64,000 nucleotides of DNA from Cyanobacteriota bacterium (lineage in GTDB: Bacteria; Cyanobacteriota; Vampirovibrionia; LMEP-6097): positions 1,225 through 65,224 of the forward strand of contig JAQCFG010000001.1 of NCBI GenBank assembly GCA_027618255.1. Reading direction: 5' to 3'. Shown here piece by piece: positions 7,050-21,749 of this stretch (positions within the stretch are counted from its first letter, which is position 1; each line of letters opens with the position of its first letter). The notes below the pieces were generated by a model that worked only from the letters and a program-made list of their open reading frames with translations, ran no database searches and was not told where the DNA came from. The position numbers and the translations under genes are program-made.

Positions 7050-7166
7050 TAGGTATAACTACTCAACCCACAAAATAAAGATAAGATAAATTTAATGTAG
7101 CTTTACTGGATGTGTGATATTATCTATATTAATTCGCAGGGATTCTATAGATTAAGGAGTAAAGCA

Positions 7167-8309
7167 ATGAGTATTGGAGAAACAATTAGAAATTTAACAA
7201 CTGGAGTCGCAGCTGCTGCAGCAGCAATAAATGCAACAGCAAATCCACCAGGACTAGCTGCAGACACCAACCCTACAAGCGTAGTGGAGCTTGCACAAAA
7301 CCAAGCACCGCAGGAAAGAATAAATCCAATACCTGACCCTATATCACAAGCTCTCGCAAAGCCAAGACCAAATACAAAACCAGATCAAGTGCCACCTCCC
7401 CCACAGCAGATTGATACATTAAATCAAGCAAAAACACTTGTCGTAGGTTTAAACGAAATCGAAACATATCTTAAGAGTGATCAAATCAAGAACTCTAAAC
7501 AACTTCTAAGTGCACTTGAACAAGTTGCTAAGACTCAGGGTTATGACATGGGCTATGCACAAGGGCTTAACGACTATAACCTAATCAGAGAAATTGTAAG
7601 AAAAATAGATAGAGAAGTCGACTACCCACTCGAAACAGAAATTGATGAAACTAATTACAGTAGAACCAGAAATACAGCAGAAGAAGCTACTCAAGCTGCA
7701 GAAGAAGCCTTTATGGCTGGAGCCAAAGGAAGTGTCTCAGCTCTAAACGCTGTTGCCAAATTTGATCTTGCAATGGAAGAGGCAGCAGCAATGATTCCTG
7801 TCTATCAACTTCCACAAAAAGGTAGTCTTACAGCAAGAATGCGCAGCCTCGTCGAAGCACTCACGCAAGAACTTGCACCAATTACATACGGAACAGACAA
7901 TCTTCCTAAATCTGTTGCAAAAGGTCCAAGATTTATTGCAGCAACAAATACAACTGATCCTTATGGTGAAGTAATAGAATTAGTTGGAAAAGGCCTTCCA
8001 GGGGCAATTGGAGCAACACTAGTAACAGCCCATAAAGCAATGTCTTCTCTTCCTAGACTTAGTTATGATGATAGAGGCAAATTGCTCAATGACGGAAATA
8101 ACATAAAAATATTTGGACTCTTAGCAAAAGTAGTTAAGGCTTATATACCTACAATCCAAATGATCTTAGATAGAGAAGCAAGATCAGAAAATGCACCGGC
8201 ACCAGTTGATCAAGAGGCCCCCGTTTTTGTTGCTCCAGTCGAGCCGAAAAATAAACAAGACAATAATAACGGGCCTTTATTTTCACCATTGTTAATTCCA
8301 CAGCAATAA
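7167..8309 (+). CDS. Hypothetical Ala/Pro-rich protein
   Basis: The ORF track starts at 7110, but an AAGGAG Shine-Dalgarno sits 8 nt upstream of the ATG at 7167. The N-terminus is low-complexity (AAAAAAINATANPP) with PPPPQQ stretches. Confidence 0.4.
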   Translation: MSIGETIRNLTTGVAAAAAAINATANPPGLAADTNPTSVVELAQNQAPQERINPIPDPISQALAKPRPNTKPDQVPPPPQQIDTLNQAKTLVVGLNEIETYLKSDQIKNSKQLLSALEQVAKTQGYDMGYAQGLNDYNLIREIVRKIDREVDYPLETEIDETNYSRTRNTAEEATQAAEEAFMAGAKGSVSALNAVAKFDLAMEEAAAMIPVYQLPQKGSLTARMRSLVEALTQELAPITYGTDNLPKSVAKGPRFIAATNTTDPYGEVIELVGKGLPGAIGATLVTAHKAMSSLPRLSYDDRGKLLNDGNNIKIFGLLAKVVKAYIPTIQMILDREARSENAPAPVDQEAPVFVAPVEPKNKQDNNNGPLFSPLLIPQQ

Positions 8310-8412
8310 GATTAATCAAAAGCATTAATCACAGATCCAACCATCAAAATATTTACCAACAAGCTAAACACCTTTTAAAATAAGGCTTTTGAGTATTGTG
8401 TAATGCACGATT

Positions 8413-9753
8413 ATGTCCGTTGTCAGGATACGACCCTGTTGCCTCTCAGAATTGAGAATAAGACCAGCTCCAGAAAATTCTTCTGGAGCTGGTTCAGCGC
8501 AATGCCCAACTCAGCATTTGGAAGCAAGGGGGCGCTTATCAATAGCTCGAAATCAAACACAAGAACAAAATCACAATTTAGATAGACCGAATCAATTTTT
8601 AACACCAGAAGAATTCAAACGGAAATTTAACACCTCGCTTGAGAATGTGCTTCTAGCTCCCAGAGCTAGGATGGAAAAAGGTGATACTGGGGCTTGTCGT
8701 ATTAACATTTCAGAAGAGTCATGGATTTTAAAAATTAGCGATAGGAAAGAAAAAGCAATAAATGAGCTTTTGATACGTAATGTTATCAATGAATTCTTCC
8801 CAAATCTACTCAGCACAACAGAAGCCTATGCTGTTGGTGCGGATGACCATACTTTATGCCTTAATCGATTTAGCCCAGCATCTAATAATCAGGAACTTTT
8901 TAACGACCTGAAGATGCAAGATAGAATTGAAATCTCAATACTTGCTCTTGTATTTGGTGTTAAAGATTTCAATTCTGGTAACATCTTATTTAAAGATGAT
9001 CAAACACCTGTATTGATAGACTTTGAAACCACTCATCATAGTCCAGAAAATTACAAAATTTATAAAAGAGGGAGGGAACTATTGCGTGAGAAATATCCAT
9101 ATATTTTAAGTGAAATGGATCCGACTAAATTAGATCAATATAAAGCTAAACAACGAGAATGGTTAAAAATAGTTAATGACGATAGTTTTAGAGCAAGGCT
9201 TTTTGAAATAGTGAAAATTTCAGGTGGGGATGAAACTATGGCAAAAATTTATTATGAGACTATCAAAAGAAATTTAAGTAATTATGAAAGAACATTACAA
9301 CTCTTAACAGAAATGAAAAGCTTAGGTATTCCTAAGACTGAATTAAATTCTTTGGGCTGGAAAGGTGGAATAAATAGTTTGAATTTTGACGAAAATACTA
9401 GTATCTTTGATACTGGAAAGAAACTTGAACTTAAAGAGGGTGAGCAATTGCTTCTAGAATTTGCTTCAGATGGAGTATTACTCATTGAATATGATGGACA
9501 ATCCTTTAAATTTCTATACAGGGATAATCATAGACAAGTGGAGAAAACTAGACAGGTAGGATGTGAATTTAAAATTGGTACGAGTGCTGATTCTAATGAT
9601 GTCATTATTTGTTTAAAAGATGAGGCGGGAGAAAAATGTCCTTGTGACTTAAATATAAGCCTAGCCGCAAATGGGAGAATCACTTTTAAACATCGACAGC
9701 CAGAACAAACAAATAATGTGAGGTTAATAGGTGTCTTTGCTAATAATCTGTAG
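8413..9753 (+). CDS. Protein-kinase-like fold protein (APH/ChoK/PI3K-like catalytic motifs); the start is uncertain and is probably near 8671
   Basis: Motifs WILKISDRKEKAINELL, KDFNSGNILF (catalytic-loop-like D-x-N-x-G-N-I-L) and VLIDFE (DFG-like). The first 87 codons contain a perfect 12-bp hairpin and no Met until codon 87. Confidence 0.4.
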   Translation: MSVVRIRPCCLSELRIRPAPENSSGAGSAQCPTQHLEARGRLSIARNQTQEQNHNLDRPNQFLTPEEFKRKFNTSLENVLLAPRARMEKGDTGACRINISEESWILKISDRKEKAINELLIRNVINEFFPNLLSTTEAYAVGADDHTLCLNRFSPASNNQELFNDLKMQDRIEISILALVFGVKDFNSGNILFKDDQTPVLIDFETTHHSPENYKIYKRGRELLREKYPYILSEMDPTKLDQYKAKQREWLKIVNDDSFRARLFEIVKISGGDETMAKIYYETIKRNLSNYERTLQLLTEMKSLGIPKTELNSLGWKGGINSLNFDENTSIFDTGKKLELKEGEQLLLEFASDGVLLIEYDGQSFKFLYRDNHRQVEKTRQVGCEFKIGTSADSNDVIICLKDEAGEKCPCDLNISLAANGRITFKHRQPEQTNNVRLIGVFANNL

Positions 9754-9808
9754 AGAAACTGAAGAATAATTCTGGCCATTTTACAAATAATTTCTTATAA
9801 TTATCAAT

Positions 9809-10144
9809 ATGAAATACTTCCTATACTGCCGTAAGTCCACTGACTCAGAGGATAGGCAAATGCTTTCTATTGAAGCCCAGCTTCAAGAACTTCGAGACTA
9901 TGCTCGTAAAGAGAAGCTTGATGTAATCAAAGAATTCACTGAATCCAAAACAGCAAAGAAACCTGGTAGAGAAATTTTCAATGAAATGATCTCAGAGATT
10001 GAAGCTGGTAAGGCTGATGGCATAGTAGCTTGGAATCCAGACAGATTAGCTCGCAACTCAGTCGATGGTGGAAGAATAATTTATCTTATTGATGAAGCTG
10101 TAATAAAAGATCTCAAATTTCTGGTTCTTGCTCTGAGATTTTAG
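9809..10144 (+). pseudogene. 5' fragment (N-terminal ~105 codons) of a large serine recombinase gene
   Basis: Its product aligns residue for residue with the first 105 aa of the intact recombinase at 15540..17171 (about 85% nt identity, including the promoter region from ~9770). Similarity ends near 10123, then 6 unrelated codons and a stop follow. Confidence 0.7.
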
Positions 10145-10298
10145 CTACTGCATCATAGCCAAGTTTTTCGATTGCACCTTTTAGTTTTCTTGAATTTGCT
10201 CCAAGGGCTTCGTATCCACTTAAAACTACTGATTTTGCTAAATTTCCTACGCTGATATTACTGTTGCTCATGTTTATATAACTATATTGTACTTGCAA
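10113..10298 (-). CDS. Small hypothetical protein
   Basis: 61-aa ORF immediately downstream of, and on the same strand as, the 366-aa gene; there is no other support. Confidence 0.25.
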   Translation of the reverse strand: MQVQYSYINMSNSNISVGNLAKSVVLSGYEALGANSRKLKGAIEKLGYDAVAKISEQEPEI

Positions 10299-10307
10299 TT
10301 TTGATAG

Positions 10308-11408
10308 TTATTTTGAATTACTCTCTTGAATTTGAGCAAAAAGTTCGCCAAGATCGACAATTTTTTTACCTTCAAATTTTTTCTGAAAGTACTCATCTGC
10401 ATCTTCAGTATTTGCAATAAAGCAACCTTGTTCTTGGATTAATCTTTCTAATTCTTCTACACTTTGCTTTTTAATTGACGATCCAATTTGTGCAGCAAGC
10501 CTGTGACTGTTTGCTAAAACTTTTGCTTGTGTTTGGCTTGAATTAAATCCTGATTCTCCAGAGTGGGCTACCGCTTCTGCTTCTAGGTCTGAATCAATAT
10601 AGCCATCGAGTAGTCTTGCAAGTTCAGTGTTATATAGTCTATGTAAAGTTCCTTGAACTCTATCTTTTCTAGCACCTTTACGAAAATCATTTCTTAAAGC
10701 TTTCCAGAGCATTACTTTTTCTTTTCTAGTAGCTTTATCTTTAAAATCTTGATAACTTTTATAACCAAACTTTTTAGCTTTAGATTCAGCTAGAGTTTTC
10801 AACTCGAAACTTTCCCTTAAAATCCCTTTCTTTTCCATGTAAGTAAGTGCCTTATGGTAGTCACGAAAAGTCTGAATTCGTTCTGGACTTAAACTAGGTC
10901 TTCTGTGTTTCAGTAAGGCAAGTTGTTCTAATGTTTTTGGATAGCTGACACCAATATCTTGCGCATTACCTGATGCTGCTGCCTCAAAATATTGTTGAGT
11001 ATGTTTGAGCTCATGTTTTAGTATCGTTTTGATTTTGTCTAAGCTTAACTTACCTCTTGTTTTGATACTGTTTATTTCAACAATAATTGAATTTGTTTCT
11101 GGTGAATAAGCTGCACTAAATTCTTGCTCAGATTTTTTTGAATTGATAATATATACGTCAGGTTTAAACTCTTTTGGAATTCCGAGTTCTTGTGCTTCTT
11201 TATCTATGACTTTGGCTAAAAAATTTTGTAACCTTTGTGTTTCTTTATCTCTAGAATTACTTAAGCTCATCAATGAAATTTCTGCTCTAGTTTTTAAAGG
11301 TCTTAATTTTCTTTTCAGTCGTTTTGGAAATTCTTCAAGCTGTTTATCCAGCCCTAGCCGAGAGGCAAACCCCATACTTGTGCAAGCTAATTGTTGAATT
11401 CTACTCAT
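10308..11408 (-). CDS. Hypothetical Lys-rich protein with an HExxH motif
   Basis: 366-aa ORF containing LKHELKHTQQ, a possible zinc-metallopeptidase motif; no other recognisable domain. Confidence 0.4.
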   Translation of the reverse strand: MSRIQQLACTSMGFASRLGLDKQLEEFPKRLKRKLRPLKTRAEISLMSLSNSRDKETQRLQNFLAKVIDKEAQELGIPKEFKPDVYIINSKKSEQEFSAAYSPETNSIIVEINSIKTRGKLSLDKIKTILKHELKHTQQYFEAAASGNAQDIGVSYPKTLEQLALLKHRRPSLSPERIQTFRDYHKALTYMEKKGILRESFELKTLAESKAKKFGYKSYQDFKDKATRKEKVMLWKALRNDFRKGARKDRVQGTLHRLYNTELARLLDGYIDSDLEAEAVAHSGESGFNSSQTQAKVLANSHRLAAQIGSSIKKQSVEELERLIQEQGCFIANTEDADEYFQKKFEGKKIVDLGELFAQIQESNSK

Positions 11409-11733
11409 GACCTTTCTATATAAAGATAAGTTATTGAAATTATTGATATTTTTAGGTGTTTTTGCTTATGACTTTTTGTAGCTACTAGCGCGCCACTTCG
11501 TGGCTTGCATCCTTTTGATTTTTTAGCTCCGTTTCATCTGTCTGCTTTACTAACGGCTACAGCAGCCATGATGAAACGAAGCCAAAAAATACAGTGTTAG
11601 CTAATGGGACAGCAGAGAGGGTGTTAAGAAAGACCGCTCTTCTGTCTGCTCGCGTCTCAGCCTCGAGCAAGCGAGCAGCCCAAAGGGCTGCGAGCGTTCC
11701 CAGTTAGGCTTGGCTGGGCTTGAGGTGGGTAAA

Positions 11734-11928
11734 TGGCGCGTCCGGAAGGATTTGAACCTTCGACCATGGTCAAGCCAAATACAATTACCAGTTTACTCAA
11801 TAGACCTAAATCGGCTAAAGCCGAAGTGAATTTTTAATATGTGATTTGCTTTGCAAATCACTGGTTTTGAGAGCACTTCTAGGCTTTTAACCGATTGATC
11901 GAGGGCTAGATCTTGCGAACACTCCTCT
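11734..11928. repeat. Island-end repeat unit A (tRNA 3'-end-like ~30 nt, a spacer with hairpin gtgatttgctttgcaaatcac, and a degenerate tRNA-Lys-like anticodon arm in the opposite orientation)
   Basis: Near-identical to unit B and about 80% identical to unit C. It starts with tggcgcgtccggaaggatttgaaccttcgacc, the reverse complement of a tRNA T-arm, acceptor 3' strand and CCA. Confidence 0.7.
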
Positions 11929-11968
11929 AAAAAACAAAAAGAACCCTAAAGGGCTCTTTTTGTTTTTT
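11929..11968. terminator. Bidirectional intrinsic terminator palindrome (A-run, 17-bp stem, T-run)
   Basis: aaaaacaaaaagaaccc-taaa-gggctctttttgttttt; it has the same architecture as the palindrome at 17363..17402. Confidence 0.6.
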
Positions 11969-11972
11969 AATT

Positions 11973-12160
11973 GTGCGTCCGGAAGGATTTGAACCTTCGA
12001 CCATGGTCAAGCCAAATGCAATTACCAGTTTACTCAATAGACAATAGTGGCTTGACCAAAATCGGCTAAAGCCGAAGTGAATTTTTAATATGTGATTTGC
12101 TTTGCAAATCACTGGTTTGAGAGCACTTCTTAGCTTTTAACTAATTGATCGAAATTCAGA
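11973..12160. repeat. Island-end repeat unit B
   Basis: Second tandem copy of unit A; it contains cttagcttttaactaattg, a degenerate tRNA-Lys anticodon stem-loop. Confidence 0.7.
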
Positions 12161-12176
12161 TTCTACTGGCTACTCC

Positions 12177-12355
12177 ACATCCCCGCAGCCAACTGGCATT
12201 CCGAGCCCCTTATCGGTTGCCCGCTTCCAGGGATTCTTGTGTTCTCAGCTTCCCCACTAGTGTATTTTGCTCTAGGAATTTTTTGAGAGCATAGCTCTGG
12301 CTGCTGTGTAACAGGAATACAGGCAGAGATATGCTCGATAAAAAATTCCATGGCA
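12177..12355 (-). pseudogene. Inverted copy of the last ~176 bp of the serine recombinase gene (left arm of an inverted repeat)
   Basis: It is the reverse complement of 16975..17150 with only a few mismatches. The spurious ORF 12163..12351 encodes SGQPIRGSECQLAAGM, identical to the recombinase C-terminus. Confidence 0.75.
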
Positions 12356-12592
12356 AAGCAAGGAGGAGCAGAGCGACGACGCGCTAGTTTCTGTCAGCGA
12401 GGGCTTTAGCTTAGCCTGTCCAGAGGAGCGTAGCGACGTAGGGAAAGCAATCTCCCAACTTAAGCTACTAACAGCCCTAAAGTGCCACTTCAGACTTTAT
12501 AGCACAACCTTATTTCAGCACGTGGAGCAAGACGCAAGGTGGCTTGCGGAACCCAGTTGAGACAAGTGAAACGCAGGCTCAACTGGAAAAAA

Positions 12593-14935
12593 TCAAGAAG
12601 TAACTTTTTCTTTTAACTGATTCAGTTTTTGTTCTTTCTGTTCTTTAATTTGTTGATTATTAGGGTCATCAAAAGAGACAAAATTTGAACACAAGGCATT
12701 ATAATGCTCTTTATCTTTCAGCTCCAAACACTCAACAATATTTTTTATAATTTGGCTACATTCGTTTATGTCAGAATGTTTGATAAAACTTTCACTAGAT
12801 CCACTATGAGAATAATTATGTACAAACTTTTCTATTCGAGTTGCCTGTATTTTTTCATCAATTAAAAAATGTAACTTTGAAGACCAAGATTTTGAATCTG
12901 GGCATTTCATTCCCAAATATGCCTCCAAAAACTTTCTAATAATATTCCCCAATATATAATGTTGTTCAAACTCCGCGGAAGGATTTTTATAAAATTTATG
13001 AATTAAATAAAAAAGATAAATATATTCCGACTTAAATTTCTTAAGCTGCCAAGGTAGCTTTTTGATTGAAGATGAATTTTTATACTTATTGTGTGTCCTT
13101 TCAATAAAGTAAAACGGTGCTTCATCAAGTTTATTGTTGTTTTGCAACTTAAGTTTTTCTTTGATAAAATCCTTAACCAAATTAAAGAATTCTAGATTAT
13201 GAGTAGAAATAAAAAGTTGTTTGCATTGATTATCTCCCAACCTTTCCCTAATAAAAGAGTACACATTATACAAATGGTTACTATCAAGACTAGAAATTGG
13301 GTCATCAATAAAAACAACAGTTTCAGAAAGATTTGTATTTTTATCTTCTAGGCTAGCAATAAAATAAGCAAAGGATATTGCTGTCTTCTCACCTTCACTT
13401 AAATTTTTGGCCGGCTTGTTGTCTCTTAATAATTTAAAAAGGCCTTTTTCATTAGTTTCAAATACCAAGTTGTCACTATTAAATAGGATTTGCAAATATT
13501 CATTTACTTTCTTAGCCCCATTTGCATTTTCAGAAAGCCTATTCTCTAAACTCACAATTTCAGACTTTAATTCACATATCAGAGTTTTCTTTTCAGATAT
13601 TAACTTCTCTTGTTCTTTTATAAGCTCTTGATTATCTATATAGTTCGTATCATTAATAAATTCATGTGCAAAGTGTTGTATTAATTTCTCTTTCAATAAT
13701 TCTCTCTCTGAATTAAAGTTATTTGTTTTTGCATTGTGCTTATCAATCACTTGATTGATTTTTTCTACAATATTCCTAATCACCTCTACTTCAGTTTTCT
13801 CAAAATCTCTTAAATCCCTAGGTGTCAATTCCTCAAAAGGATTTTCACTTTTTTGCACTAGGCAGGCCTTTAAGTTTTCAAGATATTCAGTAGAAACAGC
13901 AAGTTCATTTTTTAATATACCTTTCAAATTTTCATATTCTAATTGGAAATCATCATAGAATCTTGCTTTATCAATTAACCTTACATCTATCTCGTTAATC
14001 ACTTTAATTTTTTGATCTATCTGGTCTTTTAGTAGGTTTATTTCAGTACGTAATTTGCTCAGATCATCTGAAAAATGTTTTTCTAGCTTCCCGATTAAAT
14101 CAGCGGGTAATTTATTACCACAAAATTTACAATTATCACTATCTTTATGTAAATCCTTACCATGTTCAACCCATCTATTAAGTTCGGTATTTTCCAATAA
14201 CTTCTCTATGGTTTCTGCAATTGGTTTTTTCACCAAAAGTTCTTCTGTTCTTTGGTAAAGATTTTCACTATCAATTTTCAGCAGTATTAAAAATGATATA
14301 CCTTCTTTGACATTTGTATCTTGATAAGAGCGTATCGCTCTTTGTAGAGCATCATCTGTAAGTATTTTGTTCTCATCATTTTTTAGTACAGCACTTTCAA
14401 CATAAGGAATAAATCTATTTTTATCAAAGTTAACAATTGACAAAAGGTTCTTTATATTACTGGCTCTTTCAGAAAGAGATTTTATTAAATTCTGTTGGAG
14501 TAATCCTGTCTCTCCAGCTAAATTAACTAAACTTTCATTCTCTACCTTCAGTTCGTTAGCTTTAGAGCTTAACCGTTCTTGAAGCTCAATATTTTGTTCA
14601 CCAAGAATAAAGATAGGTTGAATCTCATCATCTTGCTGATGCCATTTTAAATTTCTATCTATAAAATCGATATTAAAAACCCTTATATCAATTACCTGAG
14701 TTAGGTCTGAACTTGATTTCAGTCCTTTTTCAGTTTCAAAAACAAACTCTGCATTAGGGTAGTCCTCATGCCTCTCTTGTCTCTCAAAACATTGAAAGAT
14801 ACGGGATAAAGAAGTTTTTCCAGTGTAATTCCAGCCATATATAAGATTATATTTTTCAAAATTTGGCAGCGATTCACTCCAAGTGAAATCCTCAAAGACT
14901 GCAAATTTCTTTATTGTATCTATCTTCACTATCAC
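12593..14935 (-). CDS. AAA_13-family ABC-type ATPase with a coiled-coil CxxC zinc hook and a C-terminal PrrC/RloC-like anticodon nuclease region (RloC-like)
   Basis: The N-terminus KKFAVFEDFTW...NLIYGWNYTGKTSLSRIF carries the AAA_13 Walker A. Also present are a DSDNCKFCGNKL zinc hook in the coiled coil, LSEGEK, VVFIDDPISSLD, FISTHNLEFF, and a C-terminal GNIIRKFLEAY motif (R-x3-E) followed by His residues about 35 aa later. Confidence 0.6.
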   Translation of the reverse strand: MIVKIDTIKKFAVFEDFTWSESLPNFEKYNLIYGWNYTGKTSLSRIFQCFERQERHEDYPNAEFVFETEKGLKSSSDLTQVIDIRVFNIDFIDRNLKWHQQDDEIQPIFILGEQNIELQERLSSKANELKVENESLVNLAGETGLLQQNLIKSLSERASNIKNLLSIVNFDKNRFIPYVESAVLKNDENKILTDDALQRAIRSYQDTNVKEGISFLILLKIDSENLYQRTEELLVKKPIAETIEKLLENTELNRWVEHGKDLHKDSDNCKFCGNKLPADLIGKLEKHFSDDLSKLRTEINLLKDQIDQKIKVINEIDVRLIDKARFYDDFQLEYENLKGILKNELAVSTEYLENLKACLVQKSENPFEELTPRDLRDFEKTEVEVIRNIVEKINQVIDKHNAKTNNFNSERELLKEKLIQHFAHEFINDTNYIDNQELIKEQEKLISEKKTLICELKSEIVSLENRLSENANGAKKVNEYLQILFNSDNLVFETNEKGLFKLLRDNKPAKNLSEGEKTAISFAYFIASLEDKNTNLSETVVFIDDPISSLDSNHLYNVYSFIRERLGDNQCKQLFISTHNLEFFNLVKDFIKEKLKLQNNNKLDEAPFYFIERTHNKYKNSSSIKKLPWQLKKFKSEYIYLFYLIHKFYKNPSAEFEQHYILGNIIRKFLEAYLGMKCPDSKSWSSKLHFLIDEKIQATRIEKFVHNYSHSGSSESFIKHSDINECSQIIKNIVECLELKDKEHYNALCSNFVSFDDPNNQQIKEQKEQKLNQLKEKVTS

Positions 14936-15068
14936 TATCAGGCATCCATTCTATCAAGTAAGTCTCTAATTACTTTTAAACTATATATTTGAGTGAAAAC
15001 CCTCAGTGGTCTTATTTTAATATCAAAAAACCTCAACTGCTAGACTTATATAGTCTAGAGGAAATTTT

Positions 15069-15485
15069 ATGTCTGGTATCACAAATTTAGGTCACATAGT
15101 AACAGATAGAGCTAACGTAGCGCAGGATATTCAAACTAGAGACAAAGTCCGTGAGTTTGGCGATATTGTTGCTGGTGTTTTATCAGGAGCTAATGACGGT
15201 GAACCAAAAGCAAGCTCCCCTGAAGACCAAGCTGCTGCTACAAGATATGCAGCAAATGTTGCAGGAGCACATTTGCTAATGGGAACAGGCAATGTCACAC
15301 CAAAACAAGCTAATCAGTTAAAAAATGACGCTGACTTTGCAAGAAGAGCTGCTGGAGGCGATGAAGTTATTTTAGAGGATGTTATCAAAGTTGCTGAACA
15401 AGTTGCCAATAATGGAGATCCAGAAGTTGGTGGGACTATGATTCTATCGGTTGCAGAGCATCTAGGTAAAATTGCACAATCTTAG
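15069..15485 (+). CDS. Hypothetical Ala/Gly-rich protein, divergent from the RloC-like gene
   Basis: 138-aa ORF with a low-complexity N-terminus MSGITNLGHIV, similar in style to other uncharacterised proteins in this window. Confidence 0.35.
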   Translation: MSGITNLGHIVTDRANVAQDIQTRDKVREFGDIVAGVLSGANDGEPKASSPEDQAAATRYAANVAGAHLLMGTGNVTPKQANQLKNDADFARRAAGGDEVILEDVIKVAEQVANNGDPEVGGTMILSVAEHLGKIAQS

Positions 15486-15539
15486 GAACAAGCAAATTTT
15501 ACTGGCCATTTCTTTTTTAGTTTTGTATAATCCATAATA

Positions 15540-17171
15540 ATGGATAAATATTTTATTTACTGTAGGAAATCCTCCGACTCAGAGGATAGACAAATGCTTT
15601 CTATTGAAGCTCAATTACAAGAACTCAGAGACTATGCTCGTAAAGAAAAGCTTGAAATAGTTAGAGAGTTCACCGAGTCTAAAACAGCGAAGAAACCTGG
15701 CAGAGAGATCTTTAATGAAATGATCTCAGAGATTGAAGCTGGTAAGGCTGATGGGATAGTAGCCTGGAATCCAGATCGCTTAGCAAGGAACTCTGTTGAT
15801 GGTGGAAGAATAATTTATCTTATTGATGAAGCTGTAATAAAGGATCTTAAGTTTCCGACTGCTTGGTTTGATAATTCACCTCAAGGCAAATTCAATCTCT
15901 CTATAGCTTTTGGGCAAGCAAAATTTTATGTCGATAATCTTAGACAGAACGTTCATCGTGGCATACGCCAGAAACTACGCAAAGGACAGTATTGCAATAA
16001 AGCTCCTCTTGGATATATTAATCACCCTAAAACTAGAACTATAGAACCTGATCCTGTTGAGTTTGACTTGATGAGAAAAACTTTTGATCTATTCCTTACT
16101 GGAAACTGTTCACAGACTGAGATTCGACAAGCAATGTTTGAAATGGGAATTAAGAATCAAACTGGTGATAGAATCCACAGAGATAAAGTAAAAAAGACTC
16201 TTCAGAATCCATTTTATTATGGCTACTCCTATCACAAAGGAGAACTCTACGAAGCCTCTCACCAGCCTATGATAACAAAAGCTGAGCATGAAGAAGTACA
16301 AAGAATCCTAAAACTCAAATCTAAGAACAAATACAAAACTACTAAGAAGGATAAGAAGAAAAGAGATTTCTTTTTCTTAGGTTTTGAGAAGTGCGGTGAG
16401 TGTGGCTGTAGTTTTACAGCAGAAAGACATGAAAAGAAAAAATATAACGCAGTCTGGAAATATTACAGATGCTCTAAGAAAAAGAAAGACATGGATTGCG
16501 ATCAACCTTACCTCAAAGAAGAAATACTTTCTGGGCAAGTAAAAGATACTGTCTCAAGGATAGCCTTAAGTGATGACTGGAGCGAGCTTGCGCTTAAGAC
16601 TCTAGACTCCTGGGCAGACACAGAGCGACAGTCATCACTTAAAACAGCCAAGAACCTTGAGTCAGATCTAAAAATCATCAGAGAAAAGCTTGAAAGGCTA
16701 CTAGATCTTCATTTGGATGGTGTTTTATCATCTGGTGAATACAAAAGCAAAAAAAATGCTCTAATAAGCTCCAAGCTAAAACTTGAAACTCAGCTCTCTC
16801 AAATCAAACAAGACGGTGTAGTTTGGCTCGAACCAAGCAAGACACTTATAAAAGAAGCTAATAGAGCCAAGAAATTAGTTGAAGAAGAAAATTATCACGA
16901 AATGCGCTCTTTACTTCAAAAAGCAGGCTCGAACCAATTAATACGAGATAGAAAGTTCAGCATGAACTACCTTGAGCCATGGAATTTTCTTATCGAGCTA
17001 AACTCTTCATTCCTGTTACACAGCAGCCAGAGCTATGCTCTCACTGAATTACCTTCAGAAAATGCGCTAGTGGGGTGGGCGGGAATAAAAAAATCCCCGC
17101 GCAGCGGGCAACCGATAAGGGGCTCGGAATGCCAGTTGGCTGCGGGGATGTCAGAATGGTGCGTCCGCTAG
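15540..17171 (+). CDS. Large serine recombinase (resolvase/invertase catalytic domain, recombinase domain and zinc ribbon)
   Basis: The N-terminus YCRKSSDSEDRQMLSIEAQ carries the catalytic Ser context; CGECGCS...YYRCS is the zinc ribbon; there is a C-terminal coiled coil. The stop codon lies inside repeat unit C. Confidence 0.8.
   Translation: MDKYFIYCRKSSDSEDRQMLSIEAQLQELRDYARKEKLEIVREFTESKTAKKPGREIFNEMISEIEAGKADGIVAWNPDRLARNSVDGGRIIYLIDEAVIKDLKFPTAWFDNSPQGKFNLSIAFGQAKFYVDNLRQNVHRGIRQKLRKGQYCNKAPLGYINHPKTRTIEPDPVEFDLMRKTFDLFLTGNCSQTEIRQAMFEMGIKNQTGDRIHRDKVKKTLQNPFYYGYSYHKGELYEASHQPMITKAEHEEVQRILKLKSKNKYKTTKKDKKKRDFFFLGFEKCGECGCSFTAERHEKKKYNAVWKYYRCSKKKKDMDCDQPYLKEEILSGQVKDTVSRIALSDDWSELALKTLDSWADTERQSSLKTAKNLESDLKIIREKLERLLDLHLDGVLSSGEYKSKKNALISSKLKLETQLSQIKQDGVVWLEPSKTLIKEANRAKKLVEEENYHEMRSLLQKAGSNQLIRDRKFSMNYLEPWNFLIELNSSFLLHSSQSYALTELPSENALVGWAGIKKSPRSGQPIRGSECQLAAGMSEWCVR
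16975..17150. repeat. Right arm of the ~176-bp inverted repeat (the recombinase 3' end)
   Basis: Reverse complement of 12177..12355. Confidence 0.75.
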
Positions 17172-17359
17172 GATTTGAACCTAGGACAATGGTCAAGCCA
17201 AATGCGATTACCAGTCAACCCAATGTCCTTAGGGCTTGACCAAAATCGGCTAAAGCCGAAGTGATTTTTTTATGTAATTTGCTTTGCAAATTACTGGTCT
17301 GAGAGCACTTCTTGGCTTTTAACCGATTGGTCCCGGGTTCAGGTTCTAGTGGAAGTACC
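17156..17359. repeat. Island-end repeat unit C (31 nt identical to the tRNA-Lys 3' end, a spacer with hairpin, and a pseudo tRNA-Lys 3' half in plus orientation)
   Basis: tggtgcgtccgctaggatttgaacctaggac matches 17405..17435. Downstream, gagagcacttcttggcttttaaccgattggtcc mimics the D-arm and anticodon arm of tRNA-Lys(UUU). Confidence 0.7.
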
Positions 17360-17362
17360 TTA

Positions 17363-17402
17363 AAAATCAAAAATCACCCACAAGGGGTGATTTTTGATTT
17401 TT
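17363..17402. terminator. Perfect 18-bp palindromic intrinsic terminator (A-run, stem, T-run) abutting the tRNA-Lys 3' end
   Basis: aaaaatcaaaaatcaccc-acaa-gggtgatttttgattttt. Confidence 0.65.
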
Positions 17403-17404
17403 AA

Positions 17405-17481
17405 TGGTGCGTCCGCTAGGATTTGAACCTAGGACCAATCGGTTAAAAGCCGAGTGCTCTACCGGGCTGAGCTACGGACGC
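17405..17481 (-). tRNA. tRNA-Lys (anticodon UUU) with encoded CCA
   Basis: Reverse complement GCGTCCGTAGCTCAGCCCGGTAGAGCACTCGGCTTTTAACCGATTGGTCCTAGGTTCAAATCCTAGCGGACGCACCA folds by hand into a cloverleaf with a 7-bp acceptor stem, anticodon loop CTTTTAA and T-loop TTCAAAT. Confidence 0.85.
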
Positions 17482-17600
17482 GTATTTAATACGCGCAGAC
17501 GCAAATAGTGTCCTTCTGGTCGTTCAGGACACTAGGCTCAAATATATCATGTGATTTTTGTATGTTTCTGAAGACTTTCTGAATTTTAGCCAGAACTGGT

Positions 17601-18923
17601 CTAGTAAACTAAGGGCAAATCAGTCCACTTAGAGGTAAAACACGGCGACCGATGCCCCTGCTTGGCGTTCCAGCCTGGTTTCTGCTCTTTATTAGAGCGC
17701 TTAGCGCCACTCGCTGCCCAAAACACCGTATTGAGCCCCAATGATAAATTCAGACCATCAACCAAATTAGACAGCTCTTGTTTTTGTCCCGTATTACTAA
17801 CTTGAGCATCCCAAATTGCCAGCTGCCGATCATCCTTATTAGCAAAATTGCTCAGAACCACTCCTGCCTTTCTATAAGAAAGCCCCTCTTCAAAAATATC
17901 ATCCAATATTACAAAAGCAGCTCGAATCAAATCAGGAGTATAAGAAGTTGGCTCCGCAAAATTATAATCAGCGGCAAGCTCTCGACCTCTGTAATGAGAT
18001 GCATCATCTGCCCGTAAAAAAATCTGCAAGGATTTCAATTCTTGATTTTGCACTCGAAGCTTCATCGCGGCACTAGCAACAAAACTGGCAACAGCCTCTC
18101 GCAGTTCTGGTAAAGTCTTGACTTTCGCACCAAATGATCTTGAACAAATGATGGATTTGTTTTGACTAGTGATTGCAGTTGCATCCAAGTCCAAACAAAC
18201 TTTGCCAGCAAGCTCCAAGACAGTGCGCATCGCATTGATACTAGCAACTTGCTTGAGCCAATCTCTATCAACATATTTCAAATCAAGAGCCGTCTTAATC
18301 CCTCTCTGGCTGAGGGTTCTCTGATAACCGCGACCAACTCCCCAAACATCAGCGAGCTCAACTTCTGACAAACAAAAATCAATTTGTGCTTCAGCCAAAG
18401 CCAAATCACTTTGATCAAAATACAAACTATAAACTCCAGTTCCATTTTCTTTGGCTATCTTGTTAGCGACCTTGGCAAGAGTCTTGTTTAGAGCAATGCC
18501 AATTGAAACAGGAATACCGGTGCAGCGTTCTACTTTGTTTTGAATTTGTTTGGCGCGAGTAATTAATTTACTTGGGCTATCCTTGGTCGTGTCCCCGAGT
18601 AAAACAAAGGCTTCATCGATTGAATATATTTCTTTGTGCTCCACTTCTTGGGCAAGTACCGACATCACTCGAGTTGACATATCACTATAAAGAGCAAAAT
18701 TGGAAGAGCGCTTATGTACTTGGTGTTTCCTGAAAATATACTCCAGCTTGAAAACCGGTTCACCCATTGCAATACCAAGGGCTTTTGCTTCCCGGGAGCG
18801 AGCAATTACACAACCATCATTATTTGATAAAACCACCACTGGTTTATTTTTCAAGCTCGGGTCAAAGACCCTCTCGCAAGAAACAAAAAAACTATTGCAA
18901 TCTAATAAAGCAAAAACCTTCAC
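17601..18923 (-). CDS. umuC: Y-family translesion DNA polymerase UmuC
   Basis: The N-terminus [20 protein letters not shown]...[23 protein letters not shown] and the SIDEAF catalytic motif are near-canonical for UmuC. Confidence 0.8.
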
Positions 18924-19249
18924 TCATAACCTCGTATCGAATGCAAGACCACTCCCCACAGCTCTTCTTGCTGACCGGCTTTGCAGTCAGAGAAACGCAT
19001 TAACAATAATTCAGTATCGCCATTAACAACAATCAAACTTGATGCCTTTGGAGTAATTGATCTATCGACAATTAGAAGATCACCATCATTAATACCCAAG
19101 TCTTGATGTCTTTGACCACTCATACGCATCACAAAACTAGCAGAAGGGTGACGTAAAAGATAACGATTAAAATCCAAAGCAAAATCGAATTGCTCCGCTT
19201 GTTCAAATGAGCCCATCTGCTCTGAATTCATAAATCGTAGTCCTGCCAT
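18920..19249 (-). CDS. umuD: UmuD-like protein (S24 LexA-like fold) of UmuD' length that apparently lacks the Ser/Lys dyad
   Basis: [36 protein letters not shown]...GVVLHSIR aligns with E. coli Umu[37 protein letters not shown]...GVVIHVVK. The gene overlaps umuC by 4 nt. Confidence 0.6.
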
Positions 19250-19438
19250 AGGACAATTATACTTACTTTCGTAAGGAGCGACGCTAAATATACTGTTTTA
19301 CCTCTTGACTATGACTTGCGTCAATATGCAAGATCGAATTAGAGCCCAAAAGCCCTGGTTTCACTAATCATTAAAATAAATCCCCAGGGGCTCAATGACC
19401 CCTTTCGATTTAGAGTCGCTTTTGCAATAATCAAAACC

Positions 19439-19675
19439 ATGGTCGAACAAATCAAGAAATTCAATTTCATAAAACCAAACGATAAGCAAAAAACCTATGC
19501 CGCAATAATATTTGCTGTGACTGGTGGTACTCTGATGTACACCGCCTGGCAATTCATTGTTCCAACGGAGTTAGACATGCCACCAATTAATCCTTTCGCA
19601 CTAGTATTCTTGGTACTCATAAGTTTAATTTTCATAAGAGTAGGTTATAATGTTTACTCAAAGGAGAGGAAATAA
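19439..19675 (+). CDS. Small hypothetical membrane protein
   Basis: 78-aa ORF with two hydrophobic helices; weak support. Confidence 0.3.
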   Translation: MVEQIKKFNFIKPNDKQKTYAAIIFAVTGGTLMYTAWQFIVPTELDMPPINPFALVFLVLISLIFIRVGYNVYSKERK

Positions 19676-19972
19676 ATGGACCCAGTCTGGTGGATTATTA
19701 TTTCAGTCATGCCAATACTAATTTTTGGACTCTTGGTAATACAAGCAGATAGACAAGCTCCTGAAGAAGCTTCAGAGCAACAACCCTAAATCTATAAAGG
19801 AGAGGGGAATGATTTTAAAAACTAATAAGGAGAGTATCCTGAGTAGCAAAGCTCAGGGTACGAGCAAAAACGCACATCCCGGCTATTGTAAGAGCTCAGG
19901 GCTTAGATATACCCTTTCGACAAAAGATGGCGGTAGGAGCTCAGGGGCTATATATACCCTTGCAGATGAAAA

Positions 19973-20047
<75 letters not shown>

Positions 20048-20069
20048 ACGGAGCAAGCTCATCAACAAA

Positions 20070-21749
20070 ATGAGTTTCTCTAAGAATACTACAACAACTT
20101 TAGTATCGGTGCTAGTATTGATGATTTTTTCATTTTTAAACCCTCTTCTTGCTAATACCAATTACCAAAGTAAGCTAGTTTTAAGCAAAAATACCAGTAT
20201 TGACCAAATTCGCTTCTTTAGGGATAGCTATATTTATAGCAATTATGGTCAGCTTTATTTTAAAGATTCTGCCATCAAACTACTCAACTCTAATGAGCAG
20301 GGCATAGTGATCAATGACATTTTTATCGACAACAATGATTTCTATCTAGCTACTGACATGGGGATCTTTCATAATTACCGCAGGATTTTTAGCAAAGAAC
20401 CTTGCCAGCAAATTATCAAAACACCTTCGCAAATATTTATCGCTTGCCAGCAAGGAATCTATAACGCCAAAATCGAAAAGAAAACTCTTCAGACTCATTT
20501 TGACTGGCAGCTCGATGAACTCAGTCCGCAAAATCCCAACTTCATTAGTCTCAATAAATCCAAAACCAAAGTCAAATACGCAAGCGCTACTAATGGATTC
20601 TTTTATCACGAGCGAAGCACTAGTTCCGTTAGTAAAGAGGGAATAGATTTGCGCAAGAAATCTAATCAGTGGATTAATAGAAGTTATGGACTCAAACGAG
20701 ACTTTCAAGACTCATTTGGTTTTGGTCGATTCCTAGAGCATGAAGCCAAATTATACCTAGCAACAAGCTCTGGCATTTTCACGAGTGCTAATCAAGGAGA
20801 ATCATGGGTAAAACACAACACTGGGCTCAAAGCCAATGCTGATGGCTTCTTTAGCATTAGGCAAATCAATCTTTACAATGGTCAGCTATTAGCTTTAACT
20901 AGTCAGGGTTTGTATCAATCACTTATACAAGAAGAACTTGACTGGCACCAAATCACAATTGCAAATACAAAAAAATCCTCAAACTATCAAAGTGATTTTT
21001 TGTCACTAGATATTCTTGATTCCACGATAATTCTTAGTAACTCACAAGGACAAGTTTTTAATTTGTCACCAGATACAAGTTATACAGCTTCAATCCACAA
21101 AGAAGAAAATCTACAACAAAATACCATAGAAGCAATAATCAAAGCAGAACCGAAGATCCAAGACTTACATAATATTGCATTAGAATTTGCTGGTATCCCC
21201 ACAGGCAAAAATTTTCGCACTTACAAAAGACAGGCTCGTCTAAGAAATCTCGTACCCGATTTTGAAGCATTTGCTGAGCATGACAGCCAAGACATTCTTT
21301 CAATTGAGACAGATGCTGGAGATAGCTTCACCTCAAATACAAGTAGCATCAACACTGATTTTGGCAAAACCAATCTTGATCGCGATGACGATAAAATCAA
21401 TACCGGAATCAAGTTTAAATGGAACCTGAGTAACTTAATTTATGACCCAGAAATCAATGACATTAATACTAGTGCAAGAATCACCGCCAATATCAGAGAG
21501 AACATTCTGACTGAACTTACCCAGATTTATTACAATCGCAAAGAACTTATTTATAGATTACTCAAACAAAGCCTCAATGAAACGACAGATGGTAATTACA
21601 AAGACAAACTACGTCTTGAAGAATACACTGCTCAACTTGACGCCCGTACCGGAGCTTGGTTTAGTCAAGAGCTTGAAAAAACTATCCAGAGCATAGTCGA
21701 GAATCTCGATCCAGAGAATCGAGCTCGAATACTCGCTCTTTACACATAG
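20070..21749 (+). CDS. Secreted hypothetical protein (Ser/Asn-rich)
   Basis: The ORF track start at 19809 overlaps tRNA-Gln. The first in-frame ATG after the tRNA is at 20070 and gives MSFSKNTTTTLVSVLVLMIFSFLNPLLA, which looks like a signal peptide. Confidence 0.5.
   Translation: MSFSKNTTTTLVSVLVLMIFSFLNPLLANTNYQSKLVLSKNTSIDQIRFFRDSYIYSNYGQLYFKDSAIKLLNSNEQGIVINDIFIDNNDFYLATDMGIFHNYRRIFSKEPCQQIIKTPSQIFIACQQGIYNAKIEKKTLQTHFDWQLDELSPQNPNFISLNKSKTKVKYASATNGFFYHERSTSSVSKEGIDLRKKSNQWINRSYGLKRDFQDSFGFGRFLEHEAKLYLATSSGIFTSANQGESWVKHNTGLKANADGFFSIRQINLYNGQLLALTSQGLYQSLIQEELDWHQITIANTKKSSNYQSDFLSLDILDSTIILSNSQGQVFNLSPDTSYTASIHKEENLQQNTIEAIIKAEPKIQDLHNIALEFAGIPTGKNFRTYKRQARLRNLVPDFEAFAEHDSQDILSIETDAGDSFTSNTSSINTDFGKTNLDRDDDKINTGIKFKWNLSNLIYDPEINDINTSARITANIRENILTELTQIYYNRKELIYRLLKQSLNETTDGNYKDKLRLEEYTAQLDARTGAWFSQELEKTIQSIVENLDPENRARILALYT

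What the first reader, a model, noticed from the sequence alone, without database searches (positions are those of the whole stretch)
12593..14935. RloC-like anticodon nuclease candidate carried next to copies of its likely tRNA substrate
This 780-aa protein has AAA_13 (PF13166) hallmarks. These are an N-terminal FxxFxDFxW...IYGWNYTGKTS P-loop, an LSEGEK signature, a VVFIDDPISSLD Walker B and an STHN H-loop. A long coiled-coil insert carries a CxxC zinc hook (NCKFCGN), as in RloC and Rad50. The C-terminal ~170 aa contain GNIIRKFLEAY, an R-x3-E arrangement like the PrrC/RloC catalytic Arg-Glu pair, with His residues about 35 aa downstream.

PrrC and RloC cleave tRNA anticodon loops, and PrrC targets tRNA-Lys specifically. 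Here the gene sits in an island integrated into tRNA-Lys(UUU). The island repeats also carry pseudo-tRNA-Lys anticodon stem-loops (cttggCTTTTAAccgat in unit C). This looks like a stand-alone translation-arrest defence or suicide module. The divergent 138-aa gene at 15069..15485 may be a partner or regulator.
Basis: partly seen in the sequence, partly recalled or inferred. Interest (0 to 1): 0.7.

Follow-up and report, generated by a model that had tools for sequence, protein, structure and literature searches.

The report
RloC-type anticodon nuclease on integrative island
The gene is a real but ordinary, divergent member of the large RloC/PrrC-type family of bacterial defence proteins (a Rad50-like ATPase fused to an RNA-cutting domain); its position next to a lysine tRNA gene reflects where its mobile island inserted, not what the enzyme cuts.

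Summary
It matches Pfam AAA_13 end to end (E 7e-138) and the PADLOC candidate family PDC-S06 (E 1e-163). It matches the PrrC model only weakly (E 2e-12).

The RloC-like call is therefore supported, as a new member of a known kind.

- The tRNA-Lys neighbourhood is the attachment region of a serine-recombinase island. Only 1 of 60 relatives' loci has any tRNA-Lys nearby. Characterised RloCs cut tRNA-Glu and tRNA-Gln in vivo, or many tRNAs in vitro.
- The 138-aa neighbour has no homologue anywhere I searched, so it is not a conserved partner.

I could not align the protein directly to E. coli PrrC or Geobacillus RloC.

The parts
12593..14935 (-). RloC-like gene, 780 aa, GTG start: ABC-ATPase head, coiled-coil/CxxC insert, C-terminal HEPN-like nuclease domain. 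GC is 29.6% against 38.6% for the window.
14810..14836 (-). Walker A / P-loop GWNYTGKTS (residues 34-42; K40 and T41)
   Evidence: K40 is present in 138 of 140 relatives.
13481..14599 (-). Helical (coiled-coil) insert, residues ~113-485, splitting the ATPase head
   Evidence: The AlphaFold model has long helices 113-165 and 432-485 with broken helices between them. Best PDB matches are Rad50, SMC and LmuB.
14120..14131 (-). CKFC (C269-x2-C272), the zinc-hook-type motif, in the non-helical apex of the insert
   Evidence: C269 is present in 139 of 140 relatives and C272 in 140 of 140.
13385..13402 (-). ABC signature LSEGEK (residues 512-517)
13283..13318 (-). Walker B and D-loop VVFIDDPISSLD (residues 540-551; D544, D545, D551)
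   Evidence: The spacing matches the PrrC-essential residues D215, D216 and D222 (PMC3025547).
13196..13207 (-). H-loop STHN (T578, H579)
12671..13051 (-). C-terminal all-helical domain (residues ~629-755), HEPN-like, the predicted anticodon nuclease domain
12923..12937 (-). R667-K-F-L-E671, the R-x3-E half of the catalytic triad
   Evidence: R is present in 139 of 140 relatives and E or D in 139 of 140. Motif definition is from PMC2610378.
12806..12829 (-). K703-F-V-H706-N-Y-S709-H710. This is the [R/K]-x6-H HEPN-type motif with the catalytic His preceded by Ser.
   Evidence: H710 is present in 138 of 140 relatives and S709 in 137 of 140. Position 703 is K in 64 and R in 64. By spacing it corresponds to PrrC R349, N352 and H356.
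15069..15485 (+). Divergent 138-aa gene with no homologues; probably unrelated island cargo, not a conserved partner
15540..17171 (+). Large serine recombinase (Resolvase, Recombinase and Zn_ribbon_recom domains), the island's integrase
17405..17481 (-). Intact tRNA-Lys(UUU), the attachment-site gene of the island
17155..17187 (.). 33-bp perfect direct repeat of the tRNA-Lys 3' end (identical to 17403-17435), an att-type duplication
12177..12341 (.). Left arm of the ~165-bp inverted repeat that bounds the module carrying the RloC-like gene, the 138-aa gene and the recombinase
   Evidence: 83% identity to 16990-17151; the outer 49 bp are identical
16990..17151 (.). Right arm of the inverted repeat, which is also the 3' end of the recombinase ORF

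Best explanation
The gene encodes a stand-alone RloC-type defence protein. It is a Rad50-like ABC ATPase whose head is split by a coiled-coil arm tipped with a CxxC zinc hook, fused to a C-terminal HEPN-type, metal-independent ribonuclease.

By analogy with characterised RloC, the hook and ATPase should keep the nuclease silent. DNA ends, or DNA damage such as that accompanying phage attack, should trigger ATP hydrolysis and release the nuclease. The nuclease should then cut tRNA anticodon loops, around the wobble base in RloC, and stop translation.

The gene arrived by horizontal transfer as cargo of a small serine-recombinase island inserted at tRNA-Lys(UUU).

Shown here: family membership at profile level, intact ATPase and nuclease motifs, HEPN-like fold, mobile-island context, and defence-island or restriction-modification context of relatives. 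Inferred: the tRNA target, wobble excision, the DNA-damage switch and the anti-phage role.
For: - Full-length match to Pfam AAA_13 (E 7.4e-138) and to PADLOC PDC-S06 (E 1e-163). The PrrC model is hit at E 1.9e-12 over residues 474-756.
- Closest relatives carry JGI's name 'wobble nucleotide-excising tRNase'.
- All ABC motifs are intact and invariant in the family.
- The full-length AlphaFold model (pLDDT 82) has a long helical insert with CxxC at a non-helical apex. Its best PDB matches are Rad50, SMC heads and Lamassu LmuB. A family profile hits the Rad50 head in the PDB (E 1.6e-5).
- R667-x3-E671-x38-S709-H710 fits the RloC motif R-x3-E-x36-52-(S)H. Mutating the equivalent residues abolished nuclease activity in Geobacillus RloC (PMC2610378).
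- These residues are present in 138-139 of 140 relatives.
- Context of relatives: the nearest (43% identity) follows hsdS-hsdR and precedes GmrSD. At least 11 of 80 loci have HsdS directly upstream and at least 7 of 80 have HsdR directly downstream. Others sit beside GmrSD, Abi_C or type III restriction genes.
- The literature notes that rloC is often the single cargo of integrated elements and needs no external silencer (PMC3458546).
- The gene's GC is 29.6% against 38.6% for the window. It sits beside a serine recombinase and tRNA-derived repeats.
Against: - There is no direct alignment to Geobacillus RloC or E. coli PrrC, because neither sequence could be retrieved.
- The C-domain alone does not reach the PADLOC PrrC model.
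- Position 703 is Lys, whereas the equivalent PrrC Arg349 could not be replaced by Lys. However, half of the family has Lys at this position.
- No equivalent of the PrrC-essential His295 was found.
- PDC-S06 is only a candidate defence family with no published validation that I found.
- No expression signals stand out.
Confidence: 0.78

Rival explanations
1. The architecture is the same, but the HEPN nuclease cuts something other than tRNA anticodon loops (mRNA, rRNA or another RNA), as RnlA/LsoA or Las1-type HEPN enzymes do.
For: The target cannot be read from sequence. The best structural matches are generic HEPN toxins and Las1, not a solved anticodon nuclease. The PrrC region implicated in anticodon recognition and His295 have no visible counterpart. 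The gene scores far better on PDC-S06 than on the PrrC model.
Against: The active-site motif and its spacing are those specific to PrrC/RloC. Both characterised members of this ABC-HEPN group are anticodon nucleases (PMC2610378, PMC3874168).
Confidence: 0.13
2. One reading: a tRNA-Lys-specific nuclease that is functionally coupled to the adjacent tRNA-Lys gene and pseudo-tRNA-Lys stem-loops (as substrate, decoy or regulator), with the 138-aa protein as its partner.
For: Pseudo anticodon stem-loops that keep the CTTTTAA loop are present in units A and C, with a degraded copy in unit B. Unit C lies just downstream of the recombinase stop, on the same strand, and folds very stably (z -11.8). Geobacillus RloC can cut anticodon stem-loop mimics in vitro.
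Against: - Only 1 of 60 relatives' loci has a tRNA-Lys nearby, and it is a CUU isoacceptor.
- The pseudo-tRNA copies sit in repeats that begin with 31-33 nt of the tRNA-Lys 3' end, as expected of integration scars, and units A and B are degraded.
- The known in vivo targets of Acinetobacter RloC are tRNA-Glu and tRNA-Gln.
- The 138-aa protein has no homologue anywhere and none near relatives.
- The protein lacks PrrC's architecture and restriction-modification linkage.
Confidence: 0.03
3. A decaying or catalytically silent copy: an intact ORF that no longer works as a nuclease.
For: Lys replaces the Arg that is essential in PrrC. The gene has a GTG start with no obvious ribosome-binding site or promoter. 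It has an extra 27-residue low-complexity C-terminal tail not seen in relatives. The neighbouring island copies are degraded.
Against: The 780-codon ORF is intact in an AT-rich gene. Every family-invariant residue is retained. Lys at position 703 is found in half the family. The same sequence recurs at 99.9-100% identity in three other assemblies. GTG starts are noted as typical of rloC genes.
Confidence: 0.05
4. A Rad50/SbcC-like DNA repair or plasmid-maintenance ATPase with no nuclease role.
For: The best structural matches for the whole protein are Rad50 and SMC heads. The Pfam family name is simply 'AAA domain'.
Against: Rad50 and SbcC lack the C-terminal domain, which here is conserved with catalytic-type residues. 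No Mre11/SbcD-type partner lies adjacent.
Confidence: 0.01

Closest known systems
RloC (Geobacillus kaustophilus and Acinetobacter baylyi; COG4694 'wobble nucleotide-excising tRNase')
   Same: It is about 780 aa. It has an ABC-ATPase head split by a coiled-coil insert with a CxxC. Its C-terminal domain carries R-x3-E-x38-(S)H, within the published x36-52 range. It is a stand-alone gene on an integrated element, has a GTG start, and its relatives are often linked to restriction-modification genes.
   Different: It was not aligned directly to an experimentally studied RloC. It is at most 43% identical to anything in the databases. It has an extra 27-residue K/E/Q-rich C-terminal tail. Its activity, target and DNA-damage switch are untested.
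PrrC (E. coli tRNA-Lys anticodon nuclease)
   Same: It has homologous ATPase motifs (K40/T41, D544/D545, D551-x-N553-H554, T578/H579) with the same spacings as the PrrC-essential residues. The nuclease motifs have the same internal spacing: R-x3-E and [R/K]-x2-[N/H]-x3-H.
   Different: PrrC is about 396 aa with no coiled-coil or zinc-hook insert, and it is always embedded in a type Ic hsd locus that silences it. PrrC has Arg where this protein has Lys703 and Asn where it has Lys668. PrrC's lysine-anticodon recognition peptide and His295 are not recognisable here. The PrrC model score is weak (E 2e-12, against 1e-163 for PDC-S06).
PADLOC PDC-S06 (candidate single-gene phage defence family)
   Same: It gives full-length matches to three PDC-S06 models at E 1e-161 to 1e-163.
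   Different: PDC-S06 is a computational candidate label, not a characterised system. It adds no information about mechanism.
Rad50 / SbcC / SMC heads and Lamassu LmuB
   Same: It shares the ABC head with an antiparallel coiled-coil arm and an apical CxxC. These are the best structural matches for the whole protein.
   Different: Those proteins lack the C-terminal HEPN-like domain and work with separate nuclease partners. The arm here is much shorter.
Minimal HEPN toxins (HEPN-MNT), Las1, Csm6 and Cas13 HEPN domains
   Different: Sequence identity is below 10%. The R-x3-E element is specific to the PrrC/RloC type. Foldseek does not find the similarity.

Membership tests
RloC (as defined by Davidov & Kaufmann 2008) | ABC-ATPase motifs: Walker A, signature, Walker B/D-loop and linchpin His | tested here: met
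   G34-S42, LSEGEK 512-517, D544/D545...D551 and T578/H579 are all present and invariant in the family.
RloC (as defined by Davidov & Kaufmann 2008) | Coiled-coil insert in the ATPase domain with a central CxxC (zinc hook) | tested here: met
   The helical insert spans ~113-485, with C269-x2-C272 in its non-helical apex. The cysteines are present in 139-140 of 140 relatives. Rad50 and SMC are the top structural matches. Zinc binding itself was not tested.
RloC (as defined by Davidov & Kaufmann 2008) | C-proximal Arg-x3-Glu-x36-52-His motif, with Ser often preceding His | tested here: met
   R667-x3-E671-x38-S709-H710. Conservation in the family is 138-139 of 140.
RloC (as defined by Davidov & Kaufmann 2008) | Residue-level alignment or orthology with an experimentally characterised RloC (Geobacillus R692/E696/H737) | not tested
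   No Geobacillus or Acinetobacter RloC sequence could be retrieved. Only indirect support exists: JGI's COG-derived name on close relatives, and similar offsets of the triad from the C-terminus.
RloC (as defined by Davidov & Kaufmann 2008) | Excises the tRNA wobble nucleotide; nuclease switched on by the DNA-dependent ATPase and zinc hook | not testable with these tools
   This needs biochemistry.
PrrC/RloC nuclease domain as a HEPN superfamily member (Anantharaman 2013) | All-helical HEPN fold with an R-x4-6-H-type motif | tested here: inconclusive
Pfam AAA_13 (PF13166) | Score above the gathering threshold over the full model | tested here: met
   461.7 bits against a cut-off of 36, covering profile positions 2-711 of 713. 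The C-domain alone scores 65.3 bits on profile positions 582-711.
PADLOC PDC-S06 | Full-length HMM match | tested here: met
   E 1e-163, covering residues 1-750 and profile positions 1-736 of 740.
PrrC | About 400-aa protein with the ATPase and nuclease domains contiguous, without a coiled-coil/zinc-hook insert | tested here: not met
   The protein is 780 aa with a ~370-aa insert.
PrrC | Gene embedded in a type Ic restriction-modification (hsd) locus that silences it | tested here: not met
   The neighbours are a 138-aa gene with no homologues, a serine recombinase and repeats. None of the ORFs scanned against Pfam between 803 and 22814 gave an hsd hit.
PrrC | Best-scoring family model is PrrC; anticodon-recognition peptide and His295 present | tested here: not met
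   The PrrC model scores only E 1.9e-12, against 1e-163 for PDC-S06. The C-domain alone gives no PrrC hit. There is no conserved His about 25 residues before R667; the family has the motif S-E-Y-x-Y-L-F there instead.

The most novel reading that the evidence does not exclude
The 5-kb module bounded by 165-bp inverted repeats (RloC-like gene, 138-aa gene with no homologues, serine recombinase) is a self-contained mobile defence cassette that targets the T-arm of tRNA-Lys. Its highly structured tRNA-Lys-derived repeat units lie just downstream of the recombinase gene on the same strand. They would act as decoy or sensor substrates, or as antisense regulators, that tune the anticodon nuclease or tRNA-Lys itself.
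Probability: 0.03. Interest if true: 0.7.

Novelty: new member of a known kind. Interest (0 to 1): 0.2.

Why it matters
The practical value is a better name for the gene: 'RloC-type ABC-ATPase/HEPN anticodon nuclease' rather than NCBI's 'AAA family ATPase'. It also adds one more example of this defence gene travelling as the main cargo of a small integrative element, here in an uncultivated lineage labelled 'Cyanobacteria bacterium'.

It does not open a new question. The family has thousands of members, and its prototype has been characterised biochemically since 2008. The family as a whole still lacks a solved structure and a demonstrated phage-defence phenotype, but this copy offers no special handle on that. 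The only unusual material is the surrounding architecture of inverted repeats and tRNA-derived repeats, which is a side observation.

Tried and rejected
- **Retrieving E. coli PrrC or Geobacillus/Acinetobacter RloC for a direct alignment.** The genome scan returned 80 other relatives. A second protein search with the family profile added only distant unnamed proteins. DNA searches of E. coli genomes found RloC-like 764-aa genes but no PrrC. tblastn against plasmids found 272 records, all named 'AAA family ATPase'. The supplement of the HEPN paper holds no alignments.
- **AlphaFold database fold search.** The library was not available.
- **PDB sequence searches.** Searches with the protein, the family profile and the C-domain profile found no solved PrrC or RloC, only Rad50 heads.
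- **Foldseek of the C-domain against the PDB.** Nothing significant.
- **Partner hypothesis.** There is no Pfam, PADLOC or NCBIfam hit for the 138-aa protein, no homologue near 80 relatives, and no homologue in 5.8 billion proteins. Rejected.
- **General tRNA-Lys linkage.** A tRNA scan of 60 relatives' loci. Rejected.
- **Inversion or absence of the module in other assemblies.** The three other contigs that carry it are collinear with the window.
- **Related islands elsewhere.** Metagenome scans for the repeat-unit core and for the recombinase found nothing.
- **Rfam.** Only the tRNAs and chance hits in 9000-21000.
- **Promoter and terminator scan.** Not above the shuffled background.
Full report

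Yes. An ORF runs from 14935 to 12593 on the minus strand: 780 codons with a GTG start. The public record for the same protein starts two codons later, giving 778 aa. It is named 'MAG: AAA family ATPase [Cyanobacteria bacterium]' and sits on a 65.8-kb contig. Relatives begin MIxKI, so the longer start fits better.

- P-loop GWNYTGKTS at 34-42
- CKFC at 269-272
- LSEGEK at 512-517
- VVFIDDPISSLD at 540-551
- STHN at 577-580
- GNIIRKFLEAY at 663-673
- NYSHSG at 707-712

**2. What family is it?**

Pfam AAA_13 matches from residue 11 to 733, over 710 of 713 profile positions, with E 7.4e-138. Three PADLOC models of the candidate single-gene defence family PDC-S06 match end to end at E 1e-161 to 1e-163. 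The PADLOC PrrC model matches residues 474-756 at E 1.9e-12. NCBIfam has nothing specific.

The nearest relatives are only 38-43% identical. Several carry JGI's name 'wobble nucleotide-excising tRNase', the RloC name.

A profile search of 1.84 billion cluster representatives finds 4,236 relatives at E<=1e-30 and 11,581 at E<=1e-3. The query is its own 50% cluster. Relatives occur across many bacterial phyla and some archaea. They also occur on 272 plasmids, mostly conjugative. This is a large, mobile and well-populated family.

**3. Anatomy**

*ATPase head.* Walker A K40/T41, signature S513/G515/E516, Walker B D544/D545, D-loop D551 followed by N553/H554, Q573 and T578/H579 are all present. 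Except for H554 (67 of 140) and N553 (122 of 140), they are invariant or nearly so in 140 aligned relatives. Their spacings mirror residues shown to be essential in E. coli PrrC (K46/T47, D215/D216, D222-D223-N224-H225, T250/H251; PMC3025547).

*Insert.* The full-length AlphaFold model (pLDDT 82) shows long helices 113-165 and 432-485 flanking shorter helices. C269-x2-C272 lies in a non-helical apex. Its best PDB matches are Rad50, SMC heads and Lamassu LmuB. A family profile finds the Chaetomium Rad50 head by sequence (E 1.6e-5). Both cysteines are conserved in 139-140 of 140 relatives. W255, G259, H263 and H287 around them are also conserved.

**4. The catalytic triad**

Davidov and Kaufmann defined RloC by a C-proximal Arg-x3-Glu-x36-52-His motif in which Ser often precedes His. 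It matches PrrC R320/E324/H356 and Geobacillus RloC R692/E696/H737. Alanine substitution of any of the three Geobacillus residues abolished nuclease activity and toxicity (PMC2610378).

Here the motif is R667-x3-E671-x38-S709-H710. Conservation in 140 relatives:

| Position | Conservation |
|---|---|
| R667 | 139 of 140 |
| E671 | E or D in 139 of 140 |
| S709 | 137 of 140 |
| H710 | 138 of 140 |
| N664 | 138 of 140 |

The other PrrC-essential residues that are shared with RloC, R349 and N352, are spaced R-x2-N-x3-H. They correspond by spacing to K703-x2-H706-x3-H710. Position 703 is K in 64 relatives and R in 64. Position 706 is N in 80, H in 40 and D in 15. The protein therefore carries the family-typical active site.

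Three differences from PrrC remain:
- Lys replaces the Arg that PrrC could not exchange for Lys.
- Lys668 replaces PrrC's Asn321.
- There is no recognisable His295 or lysine-anticodon recognition peptide. The family has a conserved S-E-Y-x-Y-L-F motif in that area instead.

The C-domain alone passes the AAA_13 threshold on profile positions 582-711 (E 6e-18). It does not reach the PADLOC PrrC model. I could not obtain E. coli PrrC or Geobacillus RloC sequences. The correspondence therefore rests on the published motif and its spacing, not on an alignment made here.

**5. Genomic context**

*Here.* The gene's GC is 29.6%, against 38.6% for the window. Upstream and divergent lies a 138-aa ORF, followed by a 543-aa large serine recombinase with Resolvase, Recombinase and Zn_ribbon_recom domains. 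An intact tRNA-Lys(UUU) is at 17405-17481. umuDC lies beyond it.

A perfect 33-bp copy of the tRNA 3' end sits at 17155-17187. Diverged copies sit at 11732 and 11969. A truncated second recombinase copy is at 9809-10144. This is an integrative island, or a stack of islands, at tRNA-Lys.

The same arrangement is 99.9-100% identical in three other assemblies: two ENA metagenome contigs and one Logan contig.

*In relatives.* The closest relative (43% identity) follows hsdS-hsdR and precedes a GmrSD gene. Another sits next to an MmeI-type enzyme. Among 80 genome loci, at least 11 have HsdS immediately upstream and at least 7 have HsdR immediately downstream. Others neighbour GmrSD, Abi_C and type III restriction genes. 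In E. coli, a 29%-identical, 764-aa relative that aligns end to end sits in islands with integrases.

This is the known RloC pattern. The gene is sometimes a 'restriction-linked ORF' and is often the single cargo of an integrated element (PMC3458546).

**6. The tRNA-Lys idea**

The pseudo anticodon stem-loops exist on the + strand in three ~190-nt units. The evidence points to integration history rather than function:
- Each unit begins with 31-33 nt of the tRNA-Lys 3' end.
- Units A and B are degraded copies.
- All three pseudo copies share a 2-nt insertion in the anticodon stem, so they descend from one pseudo copy.
- Of 60 relatives' loci, 9 have any tRNA within 6 kb and only one has a tRNA-Lys (CUU).
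- tRNA-Lys specificity belongs to PrrC. Geobacillus RloC cuts many tRNAs. [quoted passage not shown]

**7. The 138-aa 'partner'**

It has no Pfam, PADLOC or NCBIfam match. There is no tblastn hit below E=1 in the 80 relatives' loci. Its only match among 5.8 billion proteins is itself. It is not a conserved partner. The RloC literature also explains why none is needed, because RloC has an internal zinc-hook and ATPase switch.

**8. Mechanism**

*Shown.* The gene belongs to the AAA_13 family. It has intact ATPase and nuclease motifs, a Rad50-like arm with CxxC and an HEPN-like C-domain. It sits on a mobile island, and its relatives sit in defence neighbourhoods.

*Inferred from Geobacillus and Acinetobacter RloC.* Dimers are held inactive through the zinc hook. 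DNA ends together with ATP hydrolysis release the nuclease. The nuclease makes metal-independent cuts in the anticodon loop, excising the wobble nucleotide in RloC. This halts translation during phage attack or genotoxic stress.

**9. Verdict**

This is a correct and well-read observation of an ordinary thing: a divergent new member of the RloC-type ABC-HEPN family. The added speculation about substrate copies and a partner gene is not supported. Interest is low.

The surrounding repeat architecture is the only unusual feature and is recorded under things noticed in passing. It consists of 165-bp inverted repeats bounding the module, plus strongly folding tRNA-derived units.

Noticed in passing
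12177-12341 and 16990-17151: The module carrying the RloC-like gene, the 138-aa gene and the serine recombinase is bounded by ~165-bp inverted repeats (83% identical; the outer 49 bp are identical). The right arm is the 3' end of the recombinase ORF. Each arm abuts a tRNA-Lys-3'-end-like sequence in inverted orientation. This could be a remnant of a second, inverted element copy, or an invertible or transposable cassette. Other assemblies show the same orientation.
   Followed up: partly
11732-11905, 11969-12155, 17155-17337: There are three ~190-nt units. Each consists of 31-33 nt of the tRNA-Lys 3' end (antisense on the + strand), a ~110-nt core with hairpins that itself holds an antisense copy of the anticodon arm, and then the 3' two-thirds of a pseudo-tRNA-Lys on the + strand. 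Unit C folds very stably: -118.9 kcal/mol with its terminator (z -11.8), and -93.0 on the + strand against -78.2 kcal/mol on the - strand without it. Between unit C and units A/B there are compensatory changes in the T stem and in one hairpin. There is no Rfam match, and no copy was found elsewhere in the window or in JGI metagenomes.
   Followed up: partly
9809-10144: A truncated second copy of the serine recombinase gene (111 codons, 86% nucleotide identity to 15546-15845). It suggests tandem or successive islands at this tRNA-Lys.
   Followed up: no
7110-11408: ORFs with no or only marginal Pfam hits. They are a 399-aa protein, a 446-aa protein with a weak kinase-like (APH) hit, and a 366-aa protein with weak HtpX/metallopeptidase-like hits. 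They may be cargo of the older island.
   Followed up: no
17601-19249: umuC-like (IMS, IMS_C, DUF4113) and umuD-like (Peptidase_S24) genes lie immediately on the other side of tRNA-Lys.
   Followed up: no
19809-21749 and 19973-20047: The mechanical 646-aa ORF overlaps tRNA-Gln(UUG) on the opposite strand. Its real start is probably further downstream.
   Followed up: no
12319-12592 and 11460-11735: These are GC-richer non-coding stretches flanking the repeat units. The first contains a GGAGCxxAGCGACG-like motif twice. They have no Rfam match and were not examined further.
   Followed up: no
12593-12673 (residues 754-780): The protein has a 27-residue K/E/Q-rich C-terminal tail, predicted helical, that is absent from the 20 aligned relatives.
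   Followed up: no
L071-L073; plasmid hits H15-H26: One RloC-like gene is carried on large plasmids of E. coli, Enterobacter, Citrobacter, Klebsiella, Salmonella and Pseudomonas aeruginosa, with identical or nearly identical tblastn scores against the query. Where tested at DNA level, two E. coli plasmids are 99.5% identical to the Pantoea copy. It is also found in Pantoea and Pseudomonas genome assemblies, so this family member appears to have spread widely and recently.
   Followed up: partly
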